The position numbers and the translations under genes are program-made. DNA of 64,000 bases from the human T2T-CHM13v2.0 reference genome, Homo sapiens. Within the stretch, counting starts at the first letter, position 1, and every line of letters begins with the position of its first letter. Under the pieces are notes generated by a model that saw only the letters and a list, made by a program, of their open reading frames with translations, did not search any database and was not told the DNA's origin. The stretch is from NCBI RefSeq assembly GCF_009914755.1, contig NC_060947.1. One strand, written 5' to 3'. Shown here piece after piece: positions 1 through 10,215 of the stretch.

Positions 1-523
1 CACTCAGGAAATTGGTGGCTCAGAACAGGAAGCTTGTCTCATGTAATCGAATAGTGCTGGAGGAATCCAAAGCCTTCGTGTGCTGCAACATGAAGAGGGA
101 TCTGGAACAGGCCAACGAGAGAACATGTGAAGTACTGAAGAAAATCTGGGGTTCTGCCCAAGGGTTGGACTCCATGTGAAAGGACTTAGAAAGGAAGATG
201 AACGAGTTTCGAGTGTCAGGCTGCACACTGACCACATGGGGATCCGGCTGAGAAGAACACCATTGCTTCCACCTGTCCTTATCCATTCTCACAGCCTGAG
301 ACAAGCTCACTGGTAGCTTATGCTTCCAAGCAGGACTAGGAACATTCACGGTATTTATTCGGGAGTACTGACTCCGGAAAGTACAGGAAGCTTGGACTGC
401 TCGGCGCCATTGGTAGGGTCTTCCGTGGTGCACTTGGCCTTATTTATTTTTTACGACATTTGACAGAGGGCAGAGAGAGAGCAAGCATTAAAACGGCAGA
501 AGCTACTGGAAACGTCGTGAGCA

Positions 524-629
524 ATCTACAGTCATACCACCGTCAACGCTCCCAATCTTGCCTGGTCTCTGAAGTACAGAGTAGATGCAATTGGGCCCAG
601 GTTCGGGCCTGTTTCATTGTTGGATAGAA
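524..629 (+). pseudogene. 3'-truncated 5S rRNA retrocopy (S-unit copy 1)
   Basis: atctacagtcataccaccgtcaacgctcccaatct...gttcgggcctgtttcattgttggatagaa aligns to 5S nt ~1-88, with a 22-nt fold-back insert and a flanking degenerate TSD. Confidence 0.85.
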
Positions 630-1308
630 GGAACTTCCTGAATGCTTTGTTCAGCTTAAGCTGCGTATTGTTGAAGCACTCAATGGCCCAGCCATTCGAC
701 TAGGAGCATCCGTATTGCCTCTTTGTGATATGGTTTAGGCTAATGAAAAGACTTGGTTTCCAACACCCTCTTCTACCTCTGGGCAGATTCCAGATAGCTG
801 ATCTACCATTACGTTTCCGAAATCATGGGACGATCAGCTGCAAGCGAGACGATGCTCAGTGGGTTGAAACTGATCACACAGGAGGCATTTGGCAACGGCC
901 TTCTCTCCCAGCTGTTTGGATCCTGGACCTTCACTCAGGAAATTGGTGGCTCAGATCAAGAAGCTTGTCTCATGTAATCGAATAGTGCTGGAGGAATCCA
1001 ACACCTTGGTGTGCTGCAACATGAAGAGGGATCTAGAACAGGCCAACGAGAGAACATGTGAAGTACTGAAGAAAATCTGGGGTTCTGCCCAAGGGTTGGA
1101 CTCCATGTGAAAGGACTTAGAAAGGAAGATGAATGAGTTTCGAGTGTCAGGCTGCACACTGACCACATCGGGATCCAGCTGAGAAGAACACCATTGCTTC
1201 CGGCTGTCCTTCTTCATTCTCACAGCCTGAAACAAGCTCACTGGTAGCTTATGCTTGTAAGCAGGAGCGGGAACATTCACGCTATTTATTCGGGAGTACT
1301 CTGGATAA

Positions 1309-1384
1309 ATCATCCCATTATTTCGGAAATGTAATGCTAGGTCAGGTATCTGGAATCTTCCTGGAGGTAGAAGAGGGTATTGGA
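1309..1384 (-). repeat. 76-nt inverted copy of the unit's own sequence (also at 3285-3360, 5262-5337, 6307-6382)
   Basis: atcgtcccattatttcggaaatgtaatgctaggtcaggtatctggaatcttcctggaggtagaagagggtattgga (copy at 5262) is the reverse complement of 759-834 with 9 differences in 76 nt. Confidence 0.95.
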
Positions 1385-1567
1385 TGGAAGGAACTTCGTG
1401 AATGCGGTCATTGAACTCCAGAAAGTACACCAACCTTGTACTGCTCAGGGCCTTAGGTAGGGTCTTCTGTGGCGCACTTGACCTTATTTATGTTTTACAA
1501 CGTTTGACAGAGGACAGAAAGAGAGCAAGCATTAAAAGGGCAAAAGCTACCAGAAACATCGTGAACA

Positions 1568-1673
1568 ATCTACAGCCATACCACCGTGAACGCTCCCAAT
1601 CTCGTCTGGCCTCTGAAGTACAGAGTAGAGGAGATTGGGCCCAGGTAGGGGCCTGTTTCATAGTTGGATGGAA
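1568..1673 (+). pseudogene. 3'-truncated 5S rRNA retrocopy (L-unit copy 1)
   Basis: ATCTACAGCCATACCACCGTGAACGCTCCCAATCTCGTCTGGCCTCTGAAG matches 43/51 to human 5S GTCTACGGCCATACCACCCTGAACGCGCCCGATCTCGTCTGATCTCGGAAG. After the insert, CCAGGTAGGGGCCTGTTTCATAGTTGGATGGAA matches 24/33 to 5S nt 56-88. Confidence 0.9.
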
Positions 1674-2499
1674 GGAACTTTGTGAATGCTATCATTTAAC
1701 TTAAGCTGTCTATTACTAAACCAGTCAGCCGCCCAGCCATTCGACTAGGAGCATCCGTATTGCCTCTTTGTGATATGGTTTAGGCTAATGAAAAGACTTG
1801 GTTTCCAACACCCTCTTCTACCTCTGAGCAGATCCCACATAGCTGATCTACCATTACGTTTCCGAAATCATGGGACGACCAGCTGCAAGCGAGACGATGC
1901 TCACTGGGTTGAAACTGATCACTCAGGAGGCAGTTGGCAACGGCCTTCTCTCCCAGCTGTTTGGGTCCTGGACCTTCACTCAGGAAATTGGTGGCTCAGA
2001 TCAAGAAGCTTGTCTCATGTAATCGAATAGTGCTGGAGGAATCCAAAGCCTTGGTGTGCTGCAACATGAAGAGGCATCTGGAACAGGCCAACGAGAGAAC
2101 ATGTGAAGTACTGAAGAAAATCTGGGGTTCTGCCCAAGGGTTGGACTCCATGGGAAAGGACTTAGAAAGGAAGATGAATGAGTTTCGAGTGTCAGGCTGC
2201 ACACTGACCACATCGGGTTCCGGCTGAGAAGAACACCATTGCTTCCATCTGTCCTTATCCATTCTCACAGCCTGAAACAAGCTCACTGGTAGCTTATGCT
2301 TGCAAGCAGGACTGGGAACATTCAGGCTATTTATTCGGGAGTACTGACTCCAGAAAGTACAGCAACCTTGGACTGCTCAGCGCCATTGGTACGGTCTTCG
2401 GTGGTGCACTTGGCCTTATTTATTTTTTACGACATTTGACAGAGGACAGAGAGAGAGCAAGCATTAAAACGGCAGAAGCTACTGGAAACGTCGTGAACA

Positions 2500-2605
2500 A
2501 TCTACAGTCATACCACCGTGAACGCTCCCAATCTTGTCTGGTCTCTGAAGTACAGAGTAGATGTGATTGGGTCCAGGTTCGGGCCTGTTTCATTGTTGGA
2601 TAGAA
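2500..2605 (+). pseudogene. 3'-truncated 5S rRNA retrocopy (S-unit copy 2)
   Basis: Same element as 524-629, one 1976-bp dimer period downstream. Confidence 0.85.
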
Positions 2606-3543
2606 GGAACTTTCTGAATGCTTTGTTCCGCTTAAGCTGCGTATTGTTGAAGCACTCAATGGCCCAGCCATTCGACTAGGAGCATCCGTATTGCCTCTTT
2701 GTGATATGGTTTAGGCTAATGAAAAGACTTGGTTTCCAACACCCTCTTCTACCTCTGGGCAGATTCCAGATAGCTGATCTACCATTACGTTTCCGAAATC
2801 ATGGGACGATCAGCTGCAAGCGAGACGATGCTCAGTGGGTTGAAACTGATCACACAGGAGGCATTTGGCAACGGCTTTCTCTCCCAGCTGTTTGGATCCT
2901 GGACCTTCACTCAGGAAATTGGTGGCTCAGATCAAGAAGCTTGTCTCATGTAATCGAATAGTGCTGGAGGAATCCAAAGCCTTGGTGTGCTGCAACATGA
3001 AGAGGGATCTGGAACAGGCCAACGAGAGAACATGTGAAGTACTGAAGAAAATCTGGGGTTCTGCCCAAGGGTTGGACTCCATGTGAAAGGATTTAGAAAG
3101 GAAGATGAACGAGTTTCGAGTGTCAGGCTGCACAGTGACCACATCGGGTTCCAGCTGAGAAGAACACCATTGCTTCCGGGTGTCCTTATCCATTCTCACA
3201 GCCTGAAACAAGCTCACTGGTAGCTTATGCTTGTAAGCAGGACCGGGAACATTCACGCTATTTATTCGGGAGTACTCTGGATAAATCGTTCCATTATTTC
3301 GGAAATGTAATGCTAGGTCAGGTATCTGGAATCTTCCTGGAGGTAGAAGAGGGTATTGGATGGAAGGAACTTCGTGAATGCGATCATTGAACTCCAGAAA
3401 GTACACCAAGCTTGTACTGCTCGGGGCCTTAGGTAGGGTCTTCTGTGGCGCACTTGACCTTATTTATGTTTTACAACGTTTGACAGAGGACAGAAAGAGA
3501 GCAAGCATTAAAAGGGCAAAAGCTACCAGAAACATCGTGAACA

Positions 3544-3649
3544 ATCTACAGCCATACCACCGTGAACGCTCCCAATCTCGTCTGGCCTCTGAAGTACAGA
3601 GTAGAGGAGATTGGGCCCAGGTAGGGGCCTGTTTCATAGTTGGATGGAA
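3544..3649 (+). pseudogene. 3'-truncated 5S rRNA retrocopy (L-unit copy 2)
   Basis: Same element as 1568-1673. Confidence 0.9.
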
Positions 3650-4475
3650 GGAACTTTGTGAATGCTATCATTTAACTTAAGCTGTCTATTACTAAACCAG
3701 TCAGCCGCCCAGCCATTCGACTAGGAGCATCCGTATTTCCTCTTTGTGATATGGTTTAGGCTGATGAAAAGACTTGGTTTCCAACACCCTCTTCTACCTC
3801 TGGGCAGATTCCAGATAGCTGATCTACCATTACGTTTCCGAAATCATGGGACGACCAGCTGCAAGTGAGACGATGCTCAGTGGGTTGAAACTGATCACAC
3901 AGGAGGCATTTGGCAACGGCCTTCTCTCCCAGCTGTTTGGATCCTGGACCTTCACTCAGGAAATTGGTGGCTCAGATCAAGAAGCTTGTCTCATGTAATC
4001 GAATAGTGCTGGAGGAATCCAAAGCCTTGGTGTGCTGCAACATGAAGACGGATCTGGAACAGGCCAACGAGAGAACATGTGAAGTACTGAAGAAAATCTG
4101 GGGTTCTGCCCAAGGGTTGGACTCCATGTGAAAGGACTTAGAAAGGAAGATGAACGAGTTTTGAGTGTCAGGCTGCACACTGACCACATCGGGTTCCGGC
4201 TGAGAAGAACACCATTGCTTCCATCTGTCCTTATCCATTCTCACAGCCTGAGACAAGCTCACTGGTAGCTTATGCTTGCAAGCAGGACTGGGAACATTCA
4301 CGCTATTTATTCGGGAGTACTGACTCCAGAAAGTACAGCAACCTTGGACTGCTCAGCGCCATTGGTACGGTCTTCCGTGGTGCACTTGGCCTTATTTATT
4401 TTTTACGACATTTGACAGAGGACAGAGAGAGAGCAAGCATTAAAACGGCAGAAGCTACTGGAAACGTCGTGAACA

Positions 4476-4581
4476 ATCTACAGTCATACCACCGTGAACG
4501 CTCCCAATCTTGTCTGGTCTCTGAAGTACAGAGTAGATGCGATTGGGTCCAGGTTCGGGCCTGTTTCATTGTTGGATAGAA
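4476..4581 (+). pseudogene. 3'-truncated 5S rRNA retrocopy (S-unit copy 3)
   Basis: Same element as 524-629. Confidence 0.85.
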
Positions 4582-5520
4582 GGAACTTCCTGAATGCTAT
4601 TGTTCAGCTTAAGCTGCGTATTGTTGAAGCACTCAATGGCCCAGCCATTCGACTAGGAGCATCCGTATTGCCTCTTTGTGATATGGTTTAGGCTAATGAA
4701 AAGACTTGGTTTCCAACACCCTCTTCTACCTCTGGGCAGATTCCAGATAGCTGATCTACCATTACGTTTCCGAAATCATGGGACGACCAGCTGCAAGTGA
4801 GACGATGCTCAGTGGGTTGAAACTGATCACACAGGAGGCATTTGGCAACGGCCTTCTCTCCCAGCTGTTTGGATCCTGGACCTTCACTCAGGAAATTGGT
4901 GGCTCAGATCAAGAAGCTTGTCTCATGTAATCGAATATTGCTGGAGGAATCCAAAGCCTTGGTGTGCTGCAACATGAAGAGGGATCTGGAACAGGCCAAC
5001 GAGAGAACATGTGAAGTACTGAAGAAAATCTGGGGTTCTGCCCGAGGGTTGGACTCCATGTGAAAGGACTTAGAAAGGAAGATGAACGAGTTTCGAGTGT
5101 CAGGCTGCACACTGACCACACGGGGTTCCGGCTGAGAAGAACACCATTGCTTCCACCTGTCCTTATCCATTCTCACAGCCTGAGACAAGCTCACTGGTAG
5201 CTTATGCTTCCAAGCAGGACTAGGAACATTCACGCTATTTATTCGGGAGTACTCTGGATAAATCGTCCCATTATTTCGGAAATGTAATGCTAGGTCAGGT
5301 ATCTGGAATCTTCCTGGAGGTAGAAGAGGGTATTGGATGGAAGGAACTTCATGAATGCGATCATTGAACTCCAGAAAGTACACCAACCTTGTACCGCTCA
5401 GGGCCTTAGGTAGGGTCTTCTGTGGTGCACTTGACCTTATTTATGTTTTACAACGTTTGTCAGAGGACAGAAAGAGAACAAGCATTAAAAGGGCAAAAGC
5501 TACCAGAAACATCGTGAACA

Positions 5521-5626
5521 ACCTACACCCATACCACTGTGAACGCTCCCAATCTCGTCTGGCCTCTGATGTACAGAGTAGAGGAGATTGGGCCCAGGTA
5601 GGGGCCTGTTTCATAGTTGGATGGAA
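5521..5626 (+). pseudogene. 3'-truncated 5S rRNA retrocopy (L-unit copy 3, more diverged)
   Basis: acctacacccataccactgtgaacgctcccaatctcgtctgg..., a variant of 1568-1673. Confidence 0.87.
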
Positions 5627-6565
5627 GGAACTTTGTGAATGCTATCATTTAACTTAAGCTGTCTATTACTAAAGCAGTCAACAGCCCAGCCGTTCGACTA
5701 GGAGCACCCATATTGCCTCTTTGTGATATGGTTTTGGCTAATGAAAAGACTTGGTTTCCAACACCCTCTTCTACCTCTGGGCAGATTCCAGATAGCTGAT
5801 CTACCATTACGTTTCCGAAATCATGGGACGACCAGCTGCAAGCGAGACGATGCTCAGTGGTTTGAAACTGATCACACAGGAGGCATTTGGCAACGGCCTT
5901 CTCTCCCAGCTGTTTGGATCCTGGACCTTCACTCAGGAAATTGGTGGCTCAGATCAAGAAGCTTGTCTCATGTAATCGAATAGTGCTGGAGGAATCCAAA
6001 GCCTTGGTGTGCTGCAACATGAAGAGGGATCTGGAACAGGCCAACGAGAGAACATGTGAAGTACTGAAGAAAATCTGGGGTTCTGCCCAAGGGTTGGACT
6101 CCATGTGAAAGGACTTAGAAAGGAAGATGAATGAGTTTCGAGTGTCAGGCTGCACACTGACCACATCGGGTTCCAGCTGAGAAGAACACCATTGCTTCCG
6201 GCTGTCCTTATCCATTCTCACAGCCTGAAACAAGCTCACTGGTAGCTTATGCTTGCAAGCAGGACCGAGAACATTCACGCTATTTATTCGGGAGTACTCT
6301 GAATAAATCGTCCCATTATTTCGGAAATGTAATGCTAGGTCAGGTATCTGGAATCTTCCTGGAGGTAGAAGAGGGTATTGGATGGAAGGAACTTCGTGAA
6401 TGCGATCATTGAACTCCAGAAAGTACACCAACCTTGTACTGCTCAGGGCCTTAGGTAGGGTCTTCTGTGGCGCACTTGACCTTATTTATGTTTTACAACG
6501 TTTGACAGAGGACAGAAAGAGAGCAAGCATTAAAAGGGCAAAAGCTACCAGAAACATCGTGAACA

Positions 6566-6671
6566 ATCTACAGCCATACCACCGTGAACGCTCCCAATCT
6601 CGTCTGGCCTCTGAAGTACAGAGTAGAGGAGATTGGGCCCAGGTAGGGGCCTGTTTCATAGTTGAATGGAA
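6566..6671 (+). pseudogene. 3'-truncated 5S rRNA retrocopy (L-unit copy 4)
   Basis: Same element as 1568-1673. Confidence 0.9.
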
Positions 6672-8645
6672 GGAACTTTGTGAATGCTATCATTTAACTT
6701 AAGCTGTCTATTACTAAACCAGTCAGCCGCCCAGCCATTCGACTAGGAGCATCCGTATTGCCTCTTTGTGATATGGTTTAGGCTAATGAAAAGACTTGGT
6801 TTCCAACACCCTCTTCTACCTCTGAGCAGATCCCACATAGCTGATCTACCATTACGTTTCCGAAATCATGGGACGACCAGCTGCAAGCGAGACGATGCTC
6901 AGTGGGTTGAAACTGATCACTCAGGAGGCATTTGGCAACGGCCTTCTCTCCCAGCTGTTTGAGTCCTGGACCTTCACTCAGGAAATTGGTGGCTCAGATC
7001 AAGAAGCTTGTCTCATGTAATCGAATAGTGCTGAAGGAATCCAAAGCCTTGGTGTGCTGCAACATGAAGAGGGATCTGGAACAGGCCAACGAGAGAACAT
7101 GTGAAGTACTGCAGAAAATCTGGGGCTCTGCTCAAGGGTTGGACTCCATGTGAAAGTACTTACACAGGAAGATGAATGAGTTTCGAGTGTCAGGCTGCAC
7201 ACTGACCGCACCGGGTTCCGGCTGAGAAGAACACCATTGCTTCCAGCTGTCCTTATCCATTGTCACAGCCTGAGTCATGCTCGCTGGTAGCTCACGTGTG
7301 GAAGCAGGACTCGGAAAATCCACGCTATGTATTATCGAGTAGTTTGAAAGTACTGTAGCTTTAAAATAAAATAAAATCACTTAAAATAAAATGAAATACT
7401 ACAATGCTTTTCTGTCTAAGCATCAGTATTTTATAGTCATATACACACAACTATAACAGTTTAATGGTGATCACAGGATTGCTCTTAGAAGCTCTAATTT
7501 CTCTTGTCTTTGGCTAGTACTGTATAAAACCAGAAGTGTGTTTTATTGATTTTGGTGACAGAAAAATCTGAAATAATGTTTGTTTTGGTCATGTTTTCCT
7601 TCTAGAACAGAGAATCTAAAGGGGTATTAGCCCGCCTCACCTCCCCTGTCCTACATAGAGACACAGAGTCATCTGAGGCATTGGCTTTTTCTCCAAGTAG
7701 GTACCGATACCTCAGATTCGGGAAATTCCAAATCAAAAATAAGACTTAGCTTCTACAACAAATACTTCTGATGAAACATTCACTGAGGAGCATACTCCTA
7801 AACCAGACATATGTTTAAGATTCATGCTGAGATATCAGTTGGTTTCCCCTTCCTTTTAAAATACATCCAGTTCTTACCCAGTTACTATAAGCAAAGCAAT
7901 GTCTCTAGAAGAAAGCTTTCTTTGCAGTATTAGTGAAGCACTGAATAGCTTAAGTTTGAATATCTAGGTTACAAGTTAGTCTTTGGCGGGTTTTAAATAG
8001 TTTTTTGACCCTTTTGAAATATAACTATATGAGTGCTTCTTGTTGCTGGGTGAGAAATGCTACTTTATATACAGTTTTGGTTTTCGTTTTGCAGATATGA
8101 TTGATGTATTACACCACAATAAAGTATTTTTATGTTTACATAGTGTAATTTTTAGGTTCACTTAGAATACATTTTATTTAATAAATTAAAATTATTTCGG
8201 TACACTATTAAATGCAAAATCTCCTTTCCAAACAAAAAAGAACTACCTTATATTCGTCATTGAATGTTCTTGGTCTGTGCTTTTATGTTTATATAATATG
8301 GTGAATTCAGTATGGTGTCCAAGTGTGCCCTGCGTTGATAGACACGTGCCTTCCTTCCAGGAGTGGGTACTGACTCCAGACTCCAGATCCCTATTTCTAG
8401 TTAGGCTTCTGAGCTTGCAATCATATTGAATGTATGATGAGCAAAATAAAATCAAAACCTTATTTTTGTACATTTTTGAAATATATACTTAGAACTGACC
8501 ACCTCCCTGGCCCCATGGAGAGCTGTATCGTGTGTAAAGCCGCCTTTACCTTGATTCATGCAGTGTTTTTGCATCTGTGGGACCTACCTTTTCGTTCATT
8601 AGTTTGAACTATACATAAACTGTACGATCTGTAAAGTTTTTATAT

Positions 8646-8712
8646 AATAAATATTCACCTGTGAAAACTGGTTAAATAAAACTAATATTTCTTACACACG
8701 CACACACAAAAA
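8646..8712 (+). terminator. Poly(A) signals and decayed poly(A) tail of the CDYL retrocopy
   Basis: AATAAA at 8646 and 8675, followed by ...cttacacacgcacacacaaaaaa. Confidence 0.75.
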
Positions 8713-10215
8713 AGCATTCCACAATGGGCATGACAAAAAGTCCCTCTTTCAGAAAGATGCTTCTGCAGTAGAAGTTGGCTACCTTGATGCAATGACATGG
8801 CCAGTTCTGATCCTCTAATTTGTTTGGGATGCTTCTGCTACATTTTCAAATGACTTCAGTCAGTGGTTCCCACAAATGAAATATTTGCCAGACAAGACGT
8901 TGTTGCATTTCTGTGACTTTTACATTTATTAAACAATTGCTTCCTCCTCCCAGGGTAATAGCCTCCAATCTCCCCACTTTTTCAAAACATTATTGACAAT
9001 TTTTCTACCATATGTTGACACTGTGTTTCAATTCTCGTATCATTTATTCCCTAGGGCACAATTGGTTCTGCTATGACAATCTCCAGGGTAAGGATTCAAT
9101 TGTACAAGGTTATGTGAGCTTGCAAATGAAGGAGACAGAGAGAGAGAGAGAGAGAAAAAAAAAAAGGAAAAGGTGGAGGAGGGAAGGAGGGGACAAGAGG
9201 GGGAGAGAGAGAAAGTACAAATGGGAGACCTCAACTCTAGCCATTAAAAATGGTGGTTCTAAAAATCCACCACACAGTCAGAACTCAGCTTTTTACATGT
9301 GCTCACATCCATACAGAAAAGACATGTTTTGTGTTTTTCCTAGTGAATTCTTGGCAAATACTGTCAGTTGTGAAATACAAGATGGGGAACTCTTTCTCTG
9401 AAAACGTAGCCGGGGAAAAATGATGCAGTTAGGTGGAGAAATAGCTGCCTTGAAAAACAAGTTTCCTTGAGTTGATGAAACACTAGAGGAGAGAAGAGGT
9501 CCCCTTGCATGTCTTCCCCATCTCTGTGTTTATTTGCTGATCCAAACTGATTACTGTTAAAATATGCATGCCAGCATTTCATTTTCAACAAATGCTACTC
9601 CAAGTATTCATTAGCGTCTTATCCACTGTCTCTAAAATAATCTACAGTGGCCTGAATAGCTGTAGAATGACAGGAGAAAGATTGCAAGGCGACGTGCATG
9701 GGGGCCCTGAGGGCAAGGCACAGCTTGCTGGCTCCGTGGTAAGGGGTGGGTACTTGGCATCAGCCCCTCAGCAGAGAGGGCAGGACTGGGTGTAGCAAGT
9801 GACTCACAGAAAATGCATTACCCCATTGAAATGTCACCAGAATTGAATTGAAATGTCACCAAAGAAGCTCATGGGGTGAGAAATTGCCATGTGCTTTAAA
9901 AAATAATTATTATTAAATCCAACTAAAGCATGTACATAATTGAATCTGAGGTACTAGCAATCCTTGTTCCATCTTTCTTCACCCCCATCCTCCACCCCAG
10001 GAGCAACAACTTTCCACTCCATTCTGTTCCTTCTAGAATTTTCCTCTATATTTCTAAATAATTTTCATATACTGTTATTTCTCAATTTATTAATTTTAGT
10101 CATTTTTATCAACTTCTGTTATGATACTGGAGGGTTTTTCTGGCCTAACTACCCCAGTTTGCCTTGACCCATCCCCTCAATTTGGATACTATGAGTTAAA
10201 AAAAAAATTAATCGT

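What the first reader, a model, noticed from the sequence alone, without database searches (positions are those of the whole stretch)
1552..1688. Tailless 5S rRNA retrocopy inserted into the CDYL pseudogene with a ~15-bp TSD, then co-amplified
Seen: a 5S-like 106-bp block sits between gaaacatcgtgaaca (1552-1567) and ggaactttgtgaatg (1674-1688). These are two diverged copies of one CDYL motif (recalled as GAAACTTCGTGAATA, codons R-N-F-V-N), i.e. a target-site duplication. The 5S match stops at ~nt 88 with no poly(A). Known: L1-mediated tailless retropseudogenes of 5S and tRNA are 3'-truncated and primed by target microhomology. The result is a second, cryptic tandem array of 5S-derived sequence (7 copies here). 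Box A is interrupted, but L units keep a box-C-like TTGGATGGAAG, and carry it twice per unit.
Basis: partly seen in the sequence, partly recalled or inferred. Interest (0 to 1): 0.7.

Follow-up and report, generated by a model that had tools for sequence, protein, structure and literature searches.

The report
Truncated 5S rRNA retrocopy, amplified in array
A dead, 3'-shortened copy of 5S ribosomal RNA was pasted long ago into a dead copy of the CDYL gene on the X chromosome and then multiplied passively with it into a tandem array; both this kind of insertion and the array itself are already described, so it is ordinary.

Summary
Window 1568-1673 is a 106-nt block homologous to 5S rRNA nt 1 to about 89. 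It matches the genome's own 5S gene by blastn (E 2.75e-13) and nhmmer (E 3e-11). It has no A-tail and is flanked by two diverged copies of one 16-nt CDYL motif (1552-1567 and 1673-1688). Intronless CDYL relatives on chr3 and chrY carry that motif once and lack the block. The chr6 CDYL exon begins inside the motif, so the target was a spliced retrocopy. The block recurs 7 times in the window and 27 times on chrX 8,971,782-8,996,671.

Rfam's 5S model finds nothing at any threshold, the Pol III control region is cut short and interrupted, and the block is no better conserved between units than its flanks. I read it as a neutral, L1-type "tailless" 5S retropseudogene that was co-amplified passively.

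This class is known: Noll 2015 lists 555 human 5S cases, with a truncation hotspot near nt 90. Warburton 2008 already catalogued an Xp22.31 "5sRNA" array with a 1.9-kb unit.

The second TTGGATGGAAG in L units belongs to a later 114-bp templated insertion, not a second 5S insertion. Interest is low.

The parts
1568..1673 (+). Focal 5S-derived block (L-type unit): 5S nt 1 to about 89, with a 19-nt internal insertion after 5S nt ~54-56 and no A-tail
   Evidence: MAFFT against the chr1 5S gene. Global alignment: 73 matches, 16 mismatches, 19 inserted nt. blastn E 2.75e-13 and nhmmer E 3.3e-11.
1552..1567 (+). Left copy of the target-site duplication (AGAAACATCGTGAACA), derived from the CDYL codons read as RNFVN
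   Evidence: Aligns to the single motif of the chr3 retrocopy, the chrY CDY gene and the chr6 CDYL exon.
1673..1688 (+). Right copy of the target-site duplication (AGGAACTTTGTGAATG). Its first 1-3 nt are shared with 5S nt 88-90 (microhomology AGA).
   Evidence: The array consensus of this stretch fits CDYL in 14 of 15 positions and 5S nt 90-104 in 7 of 15 (my count from the letters shown).
524..629 (+). 5S-derived block, S-type unit
2500..2605 (+). 5S-derived block, S-type unit
3544..3649 (+). 5S-derived block, L-type unit
4476..4581 (+). 5S-derived block, S-type unit
5521..5626 (+). 5S-derived block, L-type unit
6566..6671 (+). 5S-derived block, last unit of the array
1299..1412 (+). L-unit-only 114-bp insertion made of two patches that overlap in TTGGA. 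One is an inverted copy of unit sequence (63 of 72 identical to S-unit positions 830-759). The other is a direct copy (23 of 26) of the 5S 3' end plus the right repeat. It recurs at about 3275-3388, 5252-5365 and 6297-6410; those coordinates are derived from the motif positions.
1..7353 (+). Window part of the tandem array of a CDYL retrocopy segment. Units are 931/932 bp (S) and 1044/1045 bp (L), arranged as L-S and L-S-S higher-order repeats. The whole array is chrX ~8,972,034-8,997,353.
7354..8354 (+). Unique continuation of the CDYL retrocopy 3' UTR beyond the array. The alignment stops at the end of the fetched chr3 locus, so the true end was not determined.

Best explanation
A 5S rRNA molecule was reverse-transcribed directly into the chromosome by the L1 machinery. 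In this model, target-primed reverse transcription was primed inside the RNA rather than on a poly(A) tail.

The target was an already inserted, spliced retrocopy of CDYL on Xp22.31. The nick fell just before AGAAAC in the codons read as RNFVN. The freed bottom-strand 3' end (...TCT) paired with A88-G89-A90 of 5S rRNA, and cDNA synthesis ran to nt 1. The staggered second nick left a 13-16-bp target-site duplication. The product was an ~88-nt, tail-less, 3'-truncated 5S retropseudogene.

Later events were DNA-level:
- small nested duplications at the left edge;
- a 19-nt insertion inside the 5S block;
- tandem duplication of a ~931-bp retrocopy segment that included the block;
- a 114-bp templated insertion that made L units;
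- expansion to about 25 kb.

The 5S pieces are passengers without function.

Shown: 5S origin, truncation point, absence of a tail, the duplication, the spliced target, and presence in all units. Inferred: L1 as the enzyme, internal priming, the order of the later events, and neutrality.
For: 5S origin:
- The chr1 5S gene used as reference scores 113.8 bits for RF00001.
- It matches all 7 window copies at E 2.75e-13 to 6e-9, and 27 copies on chrX at E 3e-11 to 1.3e-6.
- Identity to 5S nt 1-90 is 76-82% in the 26 array-type copies.
- The copy at chrX 8,971,782 is colinear with 5S nt 1-90 without any gap (61 of 90 identical; nhmmer 32 bits).
- The copy at 8,972,034 still reads GGATGGGAG, as 5S nt 81-89 does.

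No tail: the 5S part abuts the right repeat directly.

Target-site duplication and empty site:
- The flanks overlap by 14 nt on the chr3 retrocopy.
- A single motif is present in chr3, chrY and chr6.
- The edge copy's repeats agree at 14 of 16 positions.

Spliced target: the chr6 CDYL exon begins inside the motif. The unit continues colinear with the intronless copies past the end of that exon: 305 nt against chr3, versus 214 nt against chr6.

Class fit:
- Noll et al. 2015 (PMC5322556; abstract, passages and Table S2 part 3 read) describe 555 human 5S tailless retropseudogenes. These have TSDs, truncation in loops, and 2-18 nt of target/RNA complementarity.
- 29 of the 112 5S rows I could see (chr16 to chrY) are 87-93 nt long (my hand count).
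- A 2025 preprint (10.1101/2025.02.02.635956, passages) places 5S truncations at positions 46 and 90 (loops C and D).

Neutrality:
- Inter-unit diversity is 0.068 in the 5S block. It is 0.035 in the CDS part, 0.049 in the 3' UTR part and 0.087 in the left flank (24 units).
- There is no RF00001 signal.
- No TTTT occurs within 200 nt downstream of any of the 7 starts.
Against: - The nick site is a poor match to the L1 consensus. It reads CC/AGAAAC or AC/AGAAAC in the array and TC/AAGAAC in chrY. The consensus is TT/AAAA, or TT/WAAAAWW for tailless elements.
- The primer/RNA microhomology is only 3 nt, which chance gives about 1 time in 64.
- The empty site is shown only in paralogues (the chr3 and chrY copies and the chr6 gene), not in an orthologous X locus of another species. 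I could not reach such a locus.
- A single-event double template switch gives the same final structure.
- The locus is absent from Noll's list of 'perfect' cases: the first chrX 5S row is at 10,598,087 in hg19.
- The ungapped edge copy is more diverged from 5S (68%) than the array copies (76-82%). I cannot explain this beyond sampling.
- Rfam's covariance model does not recognise any copy.
Confidence: 0.8

Rival explanations
1. Single-event chimera. While L1 reverse transcriptase was copying the CDYL mRNA, it switched to a 5S rRNA at nt ~90 and copied it to nt 1. It then switched back to the CDYL mRNA 13-16 nt downstream of where it had left. The '5S insertion' and the CDYL retrocopy would then be the same age, and the repeat would be a re-copied stretch rather than a TSD.
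For: - L1 forms chimeras with 5S rRNA, and 5S in such chimeras is truncated at 46 or 90 (preprint passages).
- Divergence of the 5S block from 5S (18-24%) is similar to that of the flanks from the CDYL exon (about 20-21%), so the ages are not separable.
- The weak L1 endonuclease site at the junction is no obstacle for this model.
Against: - Described chimeras carry the small RNA at the 5' end of the insertion with one TSD pair around the whole. Here CDYL sequence continues more than 1 kb upstream of the block, and the repeat brackets only the 5S piece.
- The model needs two switches plus a precise 13-16-nt re-copy.
- 5S in 5S/L1 chimeras is said to be mostly antisense. Here it is in sense orientation.
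Confidence: 0.1
2. DNA-level capture. A fragment of 5S DNA or cDNA was patched into a double-strand break in the retrocopy by end joining or replication template switching, without L1 endonuclease.
For: - The locus demonstrably underwent templated patch insertions and nested duplications with short microhomologies.
- The endonuclease site is poor.
Against: - End joining does not normally create a 13-16-bp direct duplication of the target.
- The insert starts at 5S nt 1 and ends at the known retro-truncation hotspot near nt 90. That points to an RNA template with its exact 5' end rather than a random DNA fragment.
Confidence: 0.04
3. Functional 5S-derived elements. The ~27 blocks, and the extra box-C-like motif in L units, still recruit TFIIIA/TFIIIC/Pol III. 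Alternatively they act through the antisense lncRNA that crosses the array.
For: - 5S nt 79-89 (TTGGATGGAAG) survives exactly in L units and is present twice per L unit.
- The hub's annotation places exon 2407-7075 of the predicted lncRNA LOC107985634 on the minus strand across the array.
- Warburton 2008 listed the array among gene-bearing arrays.
Against: - The internal control region spans about +48 to +100 (Pieler 1987, as quoted in PMC8789306; passage read). Here it is cut at ~+89 and split by a 19-nt insertion in 26 of 27 copies.
- S units have a mutated motif.
- No terminator T-run lies nearby.
- There is no structural 5S signal.
- The block is no more conserved between units than its neighbours.
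- The second motif is explained as part of a templated insertion.
Confidence: 0.03
4. Chance resemblance, or a different source such as the head of a 5S-derived SINE, rather than 5S rRNA itself.
For: - Rfam RF00001 finds nothing.
- No transposable-element (TE) library (Dfam/RepBase) was available to exclude 5S-headed SINEs directly.
Against: - E-values of 1e-13 to 1e-11 against the genome's own 5S gene.
- 44 of 50 positions identical over 5S nt 2-51.
- The edge copy is colinear with 5S nt 1-90 without gaps.
- The insert is bounded by the repeat immediately after nt ~89, so no SINE body follows.
Confidence: 0.01

Closest known systems
5S rRNA tailless retropseudogenes (Schmitz et al. 2004, recalled and as cited in Noll; Noll et al. 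2015, PMC5322556)
   Same: - Starts at the RNA's 5' end.
- 3'-truncated near nt 90, the length class of 29 of the 112 Table S2 rows I saw.
- No A-tail.
- Flanked by a TSD.
- Short complementarity between the target and the RNA's last copied bases.
   Different: - Not in their list of 'perfect' cases.
- Older and more decayed.
- Carries a 19-nt secondary insertion.
- Sits inside a processed pseudogene and has been multiplied about 27-fold by tandem duplication rather than by retroposition.
Xp22.31 '5sRNA' tandem array of Warburton et al. 2008 (PMC2588610, Table 2A: 10.1 kb, 1.9-kb unit, 5 copies, >95% identity, CNV +)
   Same: - Same chromosome band.
- Same unit size: 1.9 kb there, and an S+L dimer of 1976 bp here.
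- Same 5S content.
- All 26 chrX matches to the block among the 40 scored (of 61 candidates) lie in this one array.
- The distance to TBL1X also fits, by hg18 gene coordinates that I recall rather than tested.
   Different: - The paper files it under 'arrays of 5sRNA genes' with one gene per unit. Here the 5S parts are truncated retropseudogenes, two or three per higher-order unit, and the host sequence is a CDYL retrocopy.
- T2T-CHM13 holds about 25 kb rather than 10 kb.
5S/L1 chimeric insertions (Buzdin et al., recalled; preprint 10.1101/2025.02.02.635956, passages read)
   Same: L1-dependent capture of 5S rRNA, with the same truncation points (46 and 90).
   Different: There is no L1 or mRNA 3' part fused downstream as one insertion. 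The repeat brackets the 5S piece alone, and the orientation is sense.
The 5S rDNA array at 1q42 (functional 5S genes; L009 is one copy)
   Same: Tandemly repeated 5S-related sequence.
   Different: 1q42 copies are full length and score 113.8 bits for RF00001. The X copies lack nt ~90-120, score nothing, and have no 5S spacer or upstream context.

Membership tests
Tailless retropseudogene (L1-mediated, internally primed) | Derived from a cellular small RNA and complete at the RNA's 5' end | tested here: met
   The block aligns from 5S nt 1-2 onward in all 27 copies; the first base reads A instead of G.
Tailless retropseudogene (L1-mediated, internally primed) | 3'-truncated at a recurrent internal site (a loop) | tested here: met
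   Homology ends at nt 87-90. The hotspot near nt 90 (loop D) is documented in the literature.
Tailless retropseudogene (L1-mediated, internally primed) | No oligo(A) tail | tested here: met
   5S nt ~89 abuts the right repeat with no A-run.
Tailless retropseudogene (L1-mediated, internally primed) | Flanking target-site duplication, with a single-copy motif at an empty site | tested here: met
   The flanks overlap by 14 nt on the chr3 retrocopy. The motif is single in chr3, chrY and chr6. The repeats agree at 14 of 16 in the edge copy and at 8-11 of 16 in the others. The empty sites are paralogous, not orthologous.
Tailless retropseudogene (L1-mediated, internally primed) | Target complementary to the last 2-18 nt of the copied RNA | tested here: inconclusive
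   Only AGA (5S nt 88-90) equals the first 3 nt of the repeat. This is within the published range but weak on its own.
Tailless retropseudogene (L1-mediated, internally primed) | L1 endonuclease-type target (TT/AAAA; TT/WAAAAWW for tailless elements) | tested here: inconclusive
   The site reads CC/AGAAAC or AC/AGAAAC in the array. The A-rich 3' half fits; the TT half does not.
Functional 5S rRNA gene (Rfam RF00001, type 1 Pol III promoter) | Full-length ~120 nt with the conserved 5S fold | tested here: not met
   No RF00001 match at the gathering score or at E<=10. Nt ~90-120 are absent.
Functional 5S rRNA gene (Rfam RF00001, type 1 Pol III promoter) | Intact internal control region (about +48 to +100) and a T-run terminator | tested here: not met
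   The region is cut at ~+89 and split by 19 nt in 26 of 27 copies. The first TTTT lies 212-971 nt downstream in the 7 window copies. The span of the control region is taken from the passage read; the individual box coordinates are recalled.
L1 template-switch chimera (small RNA fused 5' of an L1 or mRNA 3' part) | Small RNA at the 5' end of the whole insertion, with one TSD pair around the chimera | tested here: not met
   CDYL sequence continues upstream of the block for more than 1 kb. The repeat brackets the 5S part only.
Xp22.31 5sRNA array (Warburton 2008) | Band Xp22.31, ~1.9-kb unit, 5S annotated in each unit | tested here: met
   S+L = 931+1045 = 1976 bp. 5S blocks are in every unit. 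Table 2A was read. The hg18-to-T2T coordinate equivalence was not tested.

The most novel reading that the evidence does not exclude
The array is not inert. One possibility is that its ~27 truncated 5S heads, plus the 11 extra box-C-like motifs of L units, retain residual TFIIIA/TFIIIC binding and act as a factor sink or chromatin boundary upstream of TBL1X. Another is that the minus-strand lncRNA crossing the array yields RNA complementary to 5S rRNA nt 1-50. A milder variant is that the 88-nt insert with its 16-bp direct repeats nucleated the nested duplications that started the array; four restarts of 'repeat plus 5S 5' end' lie within about 350 bp at the left edge.
Probability: 0.04. Interest if true: 0.55.

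Novelty: new member of a known kind. Interest (0 to 1): 0.18.

Why it matters
It matters mainly as a correction and a worked example. An array listed in print as "5sRNA genes" on Xp22.31 is really a segment of a CDYL processed pseudogene. That segment carries a dead, 3'-truncated 5S retrocopy and has expanded to about 25 kb in T2T-CHM13.

The array inflates counts of 5S-related loci on the X and will attract multi-mapping 5S reads in ChIP or RNA data. The locus also keeps a readable record of successive events: a retrocopy, a nested tailless retro-insertion, small duplications, a templated patch insertion, and a higher-order tandem array. It opens no new question about Pol III or ribosome biology.

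Tried and rejected
- **Rfam cmscan.** No 5S hit at any threshold. I do not take this as evidence against 5S origin. The model leans on structure and full length, and sequence searches with the genome's own 5S gene are highly significant. The weak hits to WT1-AS_5, mir-58, snoU19 and P36 (E 1.4-5.9, far below their gathering scores) are noise.
- **Tandem Repeats Finder.** It missed the array because its longest period is 500. The repeat finder gave the 931/1045 periods.
- **The right repeat as 5S nt 90-104 rather than a TSD.** I considered this because nhmmer stretches some alignments to nt 102-103. I rejected it: the stretch fits CDYL in 14 of 15 positions and 5S in 7 of 15 (my count from the letters).
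- **The L-unit insert as filler at the tandem-duplication junction.** Rejected. The native 3' UTR runs about 17-20 nt further, to GAAAGTAC, so the real junction lies downstream. The insert-free S-like state is ancestral.
- **PDB search with a window translation.** It failed on stop codons. I used the chr6 exon instead.
- **Literature.** LOC442443 gave 0 papers. CDYL + pseudogene + tandem + TBL1X gave 2 irrelevant reviews. For CDYL / 5S rRNA / Xp22.31, 8 papers held at least two of the terms and 7 were listed; none concerned this locus. One of them (PMC4329817) was opened and was irrelevant.
- **The poly(A) end of the CDYL retrocopy.** Not located.
Full report
**What is there.** The first ~7.35 kb of the window is a tandem array with units of 931/932 bp (S) and 1044/1045 bp (L). 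Each unit holds a 105-106-nt block that resembles 5S rRNA. The focal copy is window 1568-1673, flanked by AGAAACATCGTGAACA (1552-1567) and AGGAACTTTGTGAATG (1673-1688).

A whole-genome search with window 1552-1688 scored 40 of 61 candidates. It found 26 copies on chrX between 8,972,018 and 8,996,686, and otherwise only short matches elsewhere that cover the 5S-like part.

**Is it 5S?** One of the non-array matches, on chr1, lies in a sequence that Rfam scores as a full 5S rRNA (RF00001, 113.8 bits, model 1-120). I used that genomic 5S gene as the query.
- blastn hits all 7 window copies over 5S nt 2-51 (one copy nt 3-49) at 82-88% identity, E 2.75e-13 to 6e-9.
- nhmmer hits 27 copies on 33 kb of chrX, running from 5S nt 2-7 to nt 89-103, at E 3e-11 to 1.3e-6. 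It also reports one weak fragment at E 2.
- Global alignment to 5S nt 1-90 gives 76-82% identity in the 26 array-type copies. All of these carry a 19-nt insertion after 5S nt ~54-56.

In contrast, Rfam's covariance model reports nothing for the X copies. This holds at the gathering score and at E<=10 on window 1-9000, on 1530-1710 and on the left edge. I set it aside because the sequence-level evidence is strong. The copies also lack nt ~90-120, so the closing helix cannot form, and they are interrupted by the insertion.

**Where the 5S part ends.** Homology runs through TTGGATGG(G/A)AG, which is 5S nt 79-89. The first array copy, at chrX 8,972,034, still reads GGATGGGAG. No A-run follows. The next bases could in principle align to 5S nt 90-104, and nhmmer does stretch some alignments that far. 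By my count from the letters, however, they fit CDYL in 14 of 15 positions and 5S in only 7 of 15.

**The target and the duplication.** The unit is CDYL-derived.
- Its right flank matches a chr6 exon at 79-80% identity.
- The 70 translated residues of that exon match PDB 2gtr "Chromodomain Y-like protein" at 152 bits.
- Two intronless relatives, a chr3 retrocopy and the chrY CDY gene, are colinear with the unit across the insertion point.
- On the chr3 copy the left flank ends at L013 1626 and the right flank starts at L013 1639, a 14-nt overlap.
- The multiple alignment shows one copy of the motif in chr3, chrY and chr6, and two in the array.
- The chr6 exon begins inside the motif, directly after an intron ending in ttttag. 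The unit also continues past that exon's 3' end colinear with the intronless copies.

The target was therefore spliced, cDNA-derived DNA, and CDYL mRNA itself does not contain the block.

The two 16-mers agree at 11 of 16 positions in the focal copy, at 8-11 of 16 in 26 copies, and at 14 of 16 in the edge copy. Chance at a fixed register is 2.9e-4 for 11 or more and 2.6e-7 for 14 or more.

**The left edge, outside the window.** The full retrocopy starts near chrX 8,970,449. Its 5' part runs to 8,971,700, and the last unit continues into unique 3' UTR to at least window 8354. Between the 5' part and the array lie four restarts of "repeat plus 5S 5' end" within about 350 bp:
- a fragment covering 5S nt 1 to ~25;
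- an 88-nt copy at 8,971,782;
- a fragment covering 5S nt 1 to ~28;
- the first array-type copy.

The 88-nt copy is colinear with 5S nt 1-90 without a gap. It has the cleanest repeats: AGAAACTTCGTGAATA on the left and AGGAACTTTGTGAATA on the right. I infer that the original insert was ~88 nt and that the 19-nt insertion arose later, in the copy that seeded the array. That this edge copy is more diverged from 5S (68%) than the array copies remains unexplained.

**Mechanism.** The anatomy has four features: an exact 5' end, truncation near nt 90, no tail, and a 13-16-bp duplication. This is the anatomy of L1-mediated tailless retropseudogenes.
- Noll et al. 2015 (PMC5322556; I read the abstract, passages and part 3 of Table S2) report 555 such 5S elements in human. 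They describe truncation in loops, internal priming, and target complementarity of 2-18 nt to the RNA.
- Of the 112 5S rows I could see (chr16 to chrY), 29 are 87-93 nt long by my hand count, and most others are about 36-50 nt.
- A 2025 preprint (passages only) places 5S truncations at 46 and 90 (loops C and D).

Here the first three bases of the repeat (AGA) equal 5S nt 88-90, which fits internal priming but is weak evidence. The nick site (CC/AGAAAC or AC/AGAAAC) only half fits TT/AAAA. The locus is not in Noll's list: the first chrX 5S row is at 10,598,087 in hg19, beyond where I expect this array at about 9.3-9.4 Mb (a recalled position, not tested). I presume this is because of its decay and the internal insertion.

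A one-step double template switch during CDYL retrotransposition cannot be excluded without an orthologous empty site. I rate it at about 0.1, for two reasons. Described chimeras carry the small RNA at the 5' end of the insertion. Here CDYL continues upstream and the repeat brackets only the 5S part.

**The array and the second motif.** Of 24 intervals between successive 5S starts, 11 are L and 13 are S, in the order LSSLSSLSSLSLSSLSLSLSLSLL. L differs from S by a 114-bp insertion (window 1299-1412) made of two patches that share TTGGA at their junction:
- an inverted copy of unit sequence, 63 of 72 identical;
- a direct copy, 23 of 26 identical, of the 5S 3' end plus the right repeat.

This explains why TTGGATGGAAG occurs twice per L unit. 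It is a secondary, DNA-level copy made after the 5S insertion. The native 3' UTR beyond the last unit has no such insert and runs on to GAAAGTAC. There the unit junction lies, with a TAC microhomology to the CDS. S is therefore the older form.

**Function.**
- The 5S internal control region spans about +48 to +100 (Pieler 1987, as quoted in PMC8789306; passage read). The individual box coordinates I know only from memory. Here the region is cut at ~+89 and split by 19 nt in 26 of 27 copies.
- S units have a mutated motif.
- The nearest TTTT lies 212-971 nt downstream in the 7 window copies.
- Inter-unit diversity of the block (0.068) is higher than that of the CDS part (0.035) and the 3' UTR part (0.049), and close to that of the left flank (0.087) (24 units).

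I conclude that the blocks are neutral passengers. ChIP and RNA data could not be examined.

**Known or new.**
- Warburton et al. 2008 (PMC2588610; Table 2A and passages read) list an Xp22.31 array of 10.1 kb with a 1.9-kb unit, 5 copies, >95% identity, CNV +, and content "5sRNA", at hg18 chrX:9,331,977-9,342,069. [quoted passage not shown]
- Band, unit size (S+L = 1976 bp) and content match. The coordinate equivalence rests on recalled gene positions.
- The 5S-bearing array is therefore already catalogued, although it is described as genes. The class of insertion is well described.
- In my searches I found no paper that names the host as a CDYL retrocopy or dissects the insertion. These searches cover only the held library.

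**Age.** The roughly 20% divergence of both the CDYL part and the 5S part from their sources suggests an old event, of the order of 100 Myr. This uses a recalled neutral substitution rate and was not tested.

**Verdict.** This is a new, decayed and amplified member of a known kind, and interest is low.

Noticed in passing
L010 2661-3160 (chrX 8,971,660-8,972,160), just left of the array and outside the window: Four restarts of 'CDYL motif plus 5S 5' end' lie within about 350 bp: two fragments (5S nt 1 to ~25 and 1 to ~28), an ungapped 88-nt copy, and the first array-type copy. They look like nested small tandem duplications that preceded the array.
   Followed up: partly
window 1299-1412 (also about 3275-3388, 5252-5365 and 6297-6410): The L-unit-specific 114-bp insertion is built from an inverted and a direct patch of nearby unit sequence, joined at a 5-nt microhomology (TTGGA). 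This is a footprint typical of replication template switching.
   Followed up: yes
window 7346-7353 and the unit junctions (e.g. window 2347-2365): The tandem-duplication junction joins the CDYL 3' UTR (GAAAGTAC) to the CDS (…TACAGCAAGCTT in the unduplicated 5' part, L010 ~2560) with about 3 nt of microhomology.
   Followed up: partly
window 2407-7075, minus strand (hub annotation): A 4.7-kb exon of the predicted lncRNA LOC107985634 runs antisense through about 4.5 array units, so any transcript would carry sequence complementary to 5S nt 1-50 several times. A RefSeq 'silencer' (7072-7277) sits at the array's distal end.
   Followed up: no
G000:C3:16692800-16696200 (L013), minus strand: A second, independent-looking processed CDYL pseudogene on chr3. 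It is 72-76% identical to the X units and served as the empty-site comparator.
   Followed up: partly
Warburton 2008 Table 2A (hg18 chr16:34,837,642-34,847,159): A further '5sRNA' array at 16p11.1 (1.5-kb unit, 7 copies) is listed beside the X one. It may likewise be an amplified 5S retropseudogene rather than genes. It was not among the 40 scored matches.
   Followed up: no
array as a whole, chrX 8,972,034-8,997,353: The array is about 25 kb in T2T-CHM13 but 10.1 kb in hg18 (Warburton 2008, flagged CNV +). This is either copy-number polymorphism or collapse in the older assembly.
   Followed up: no
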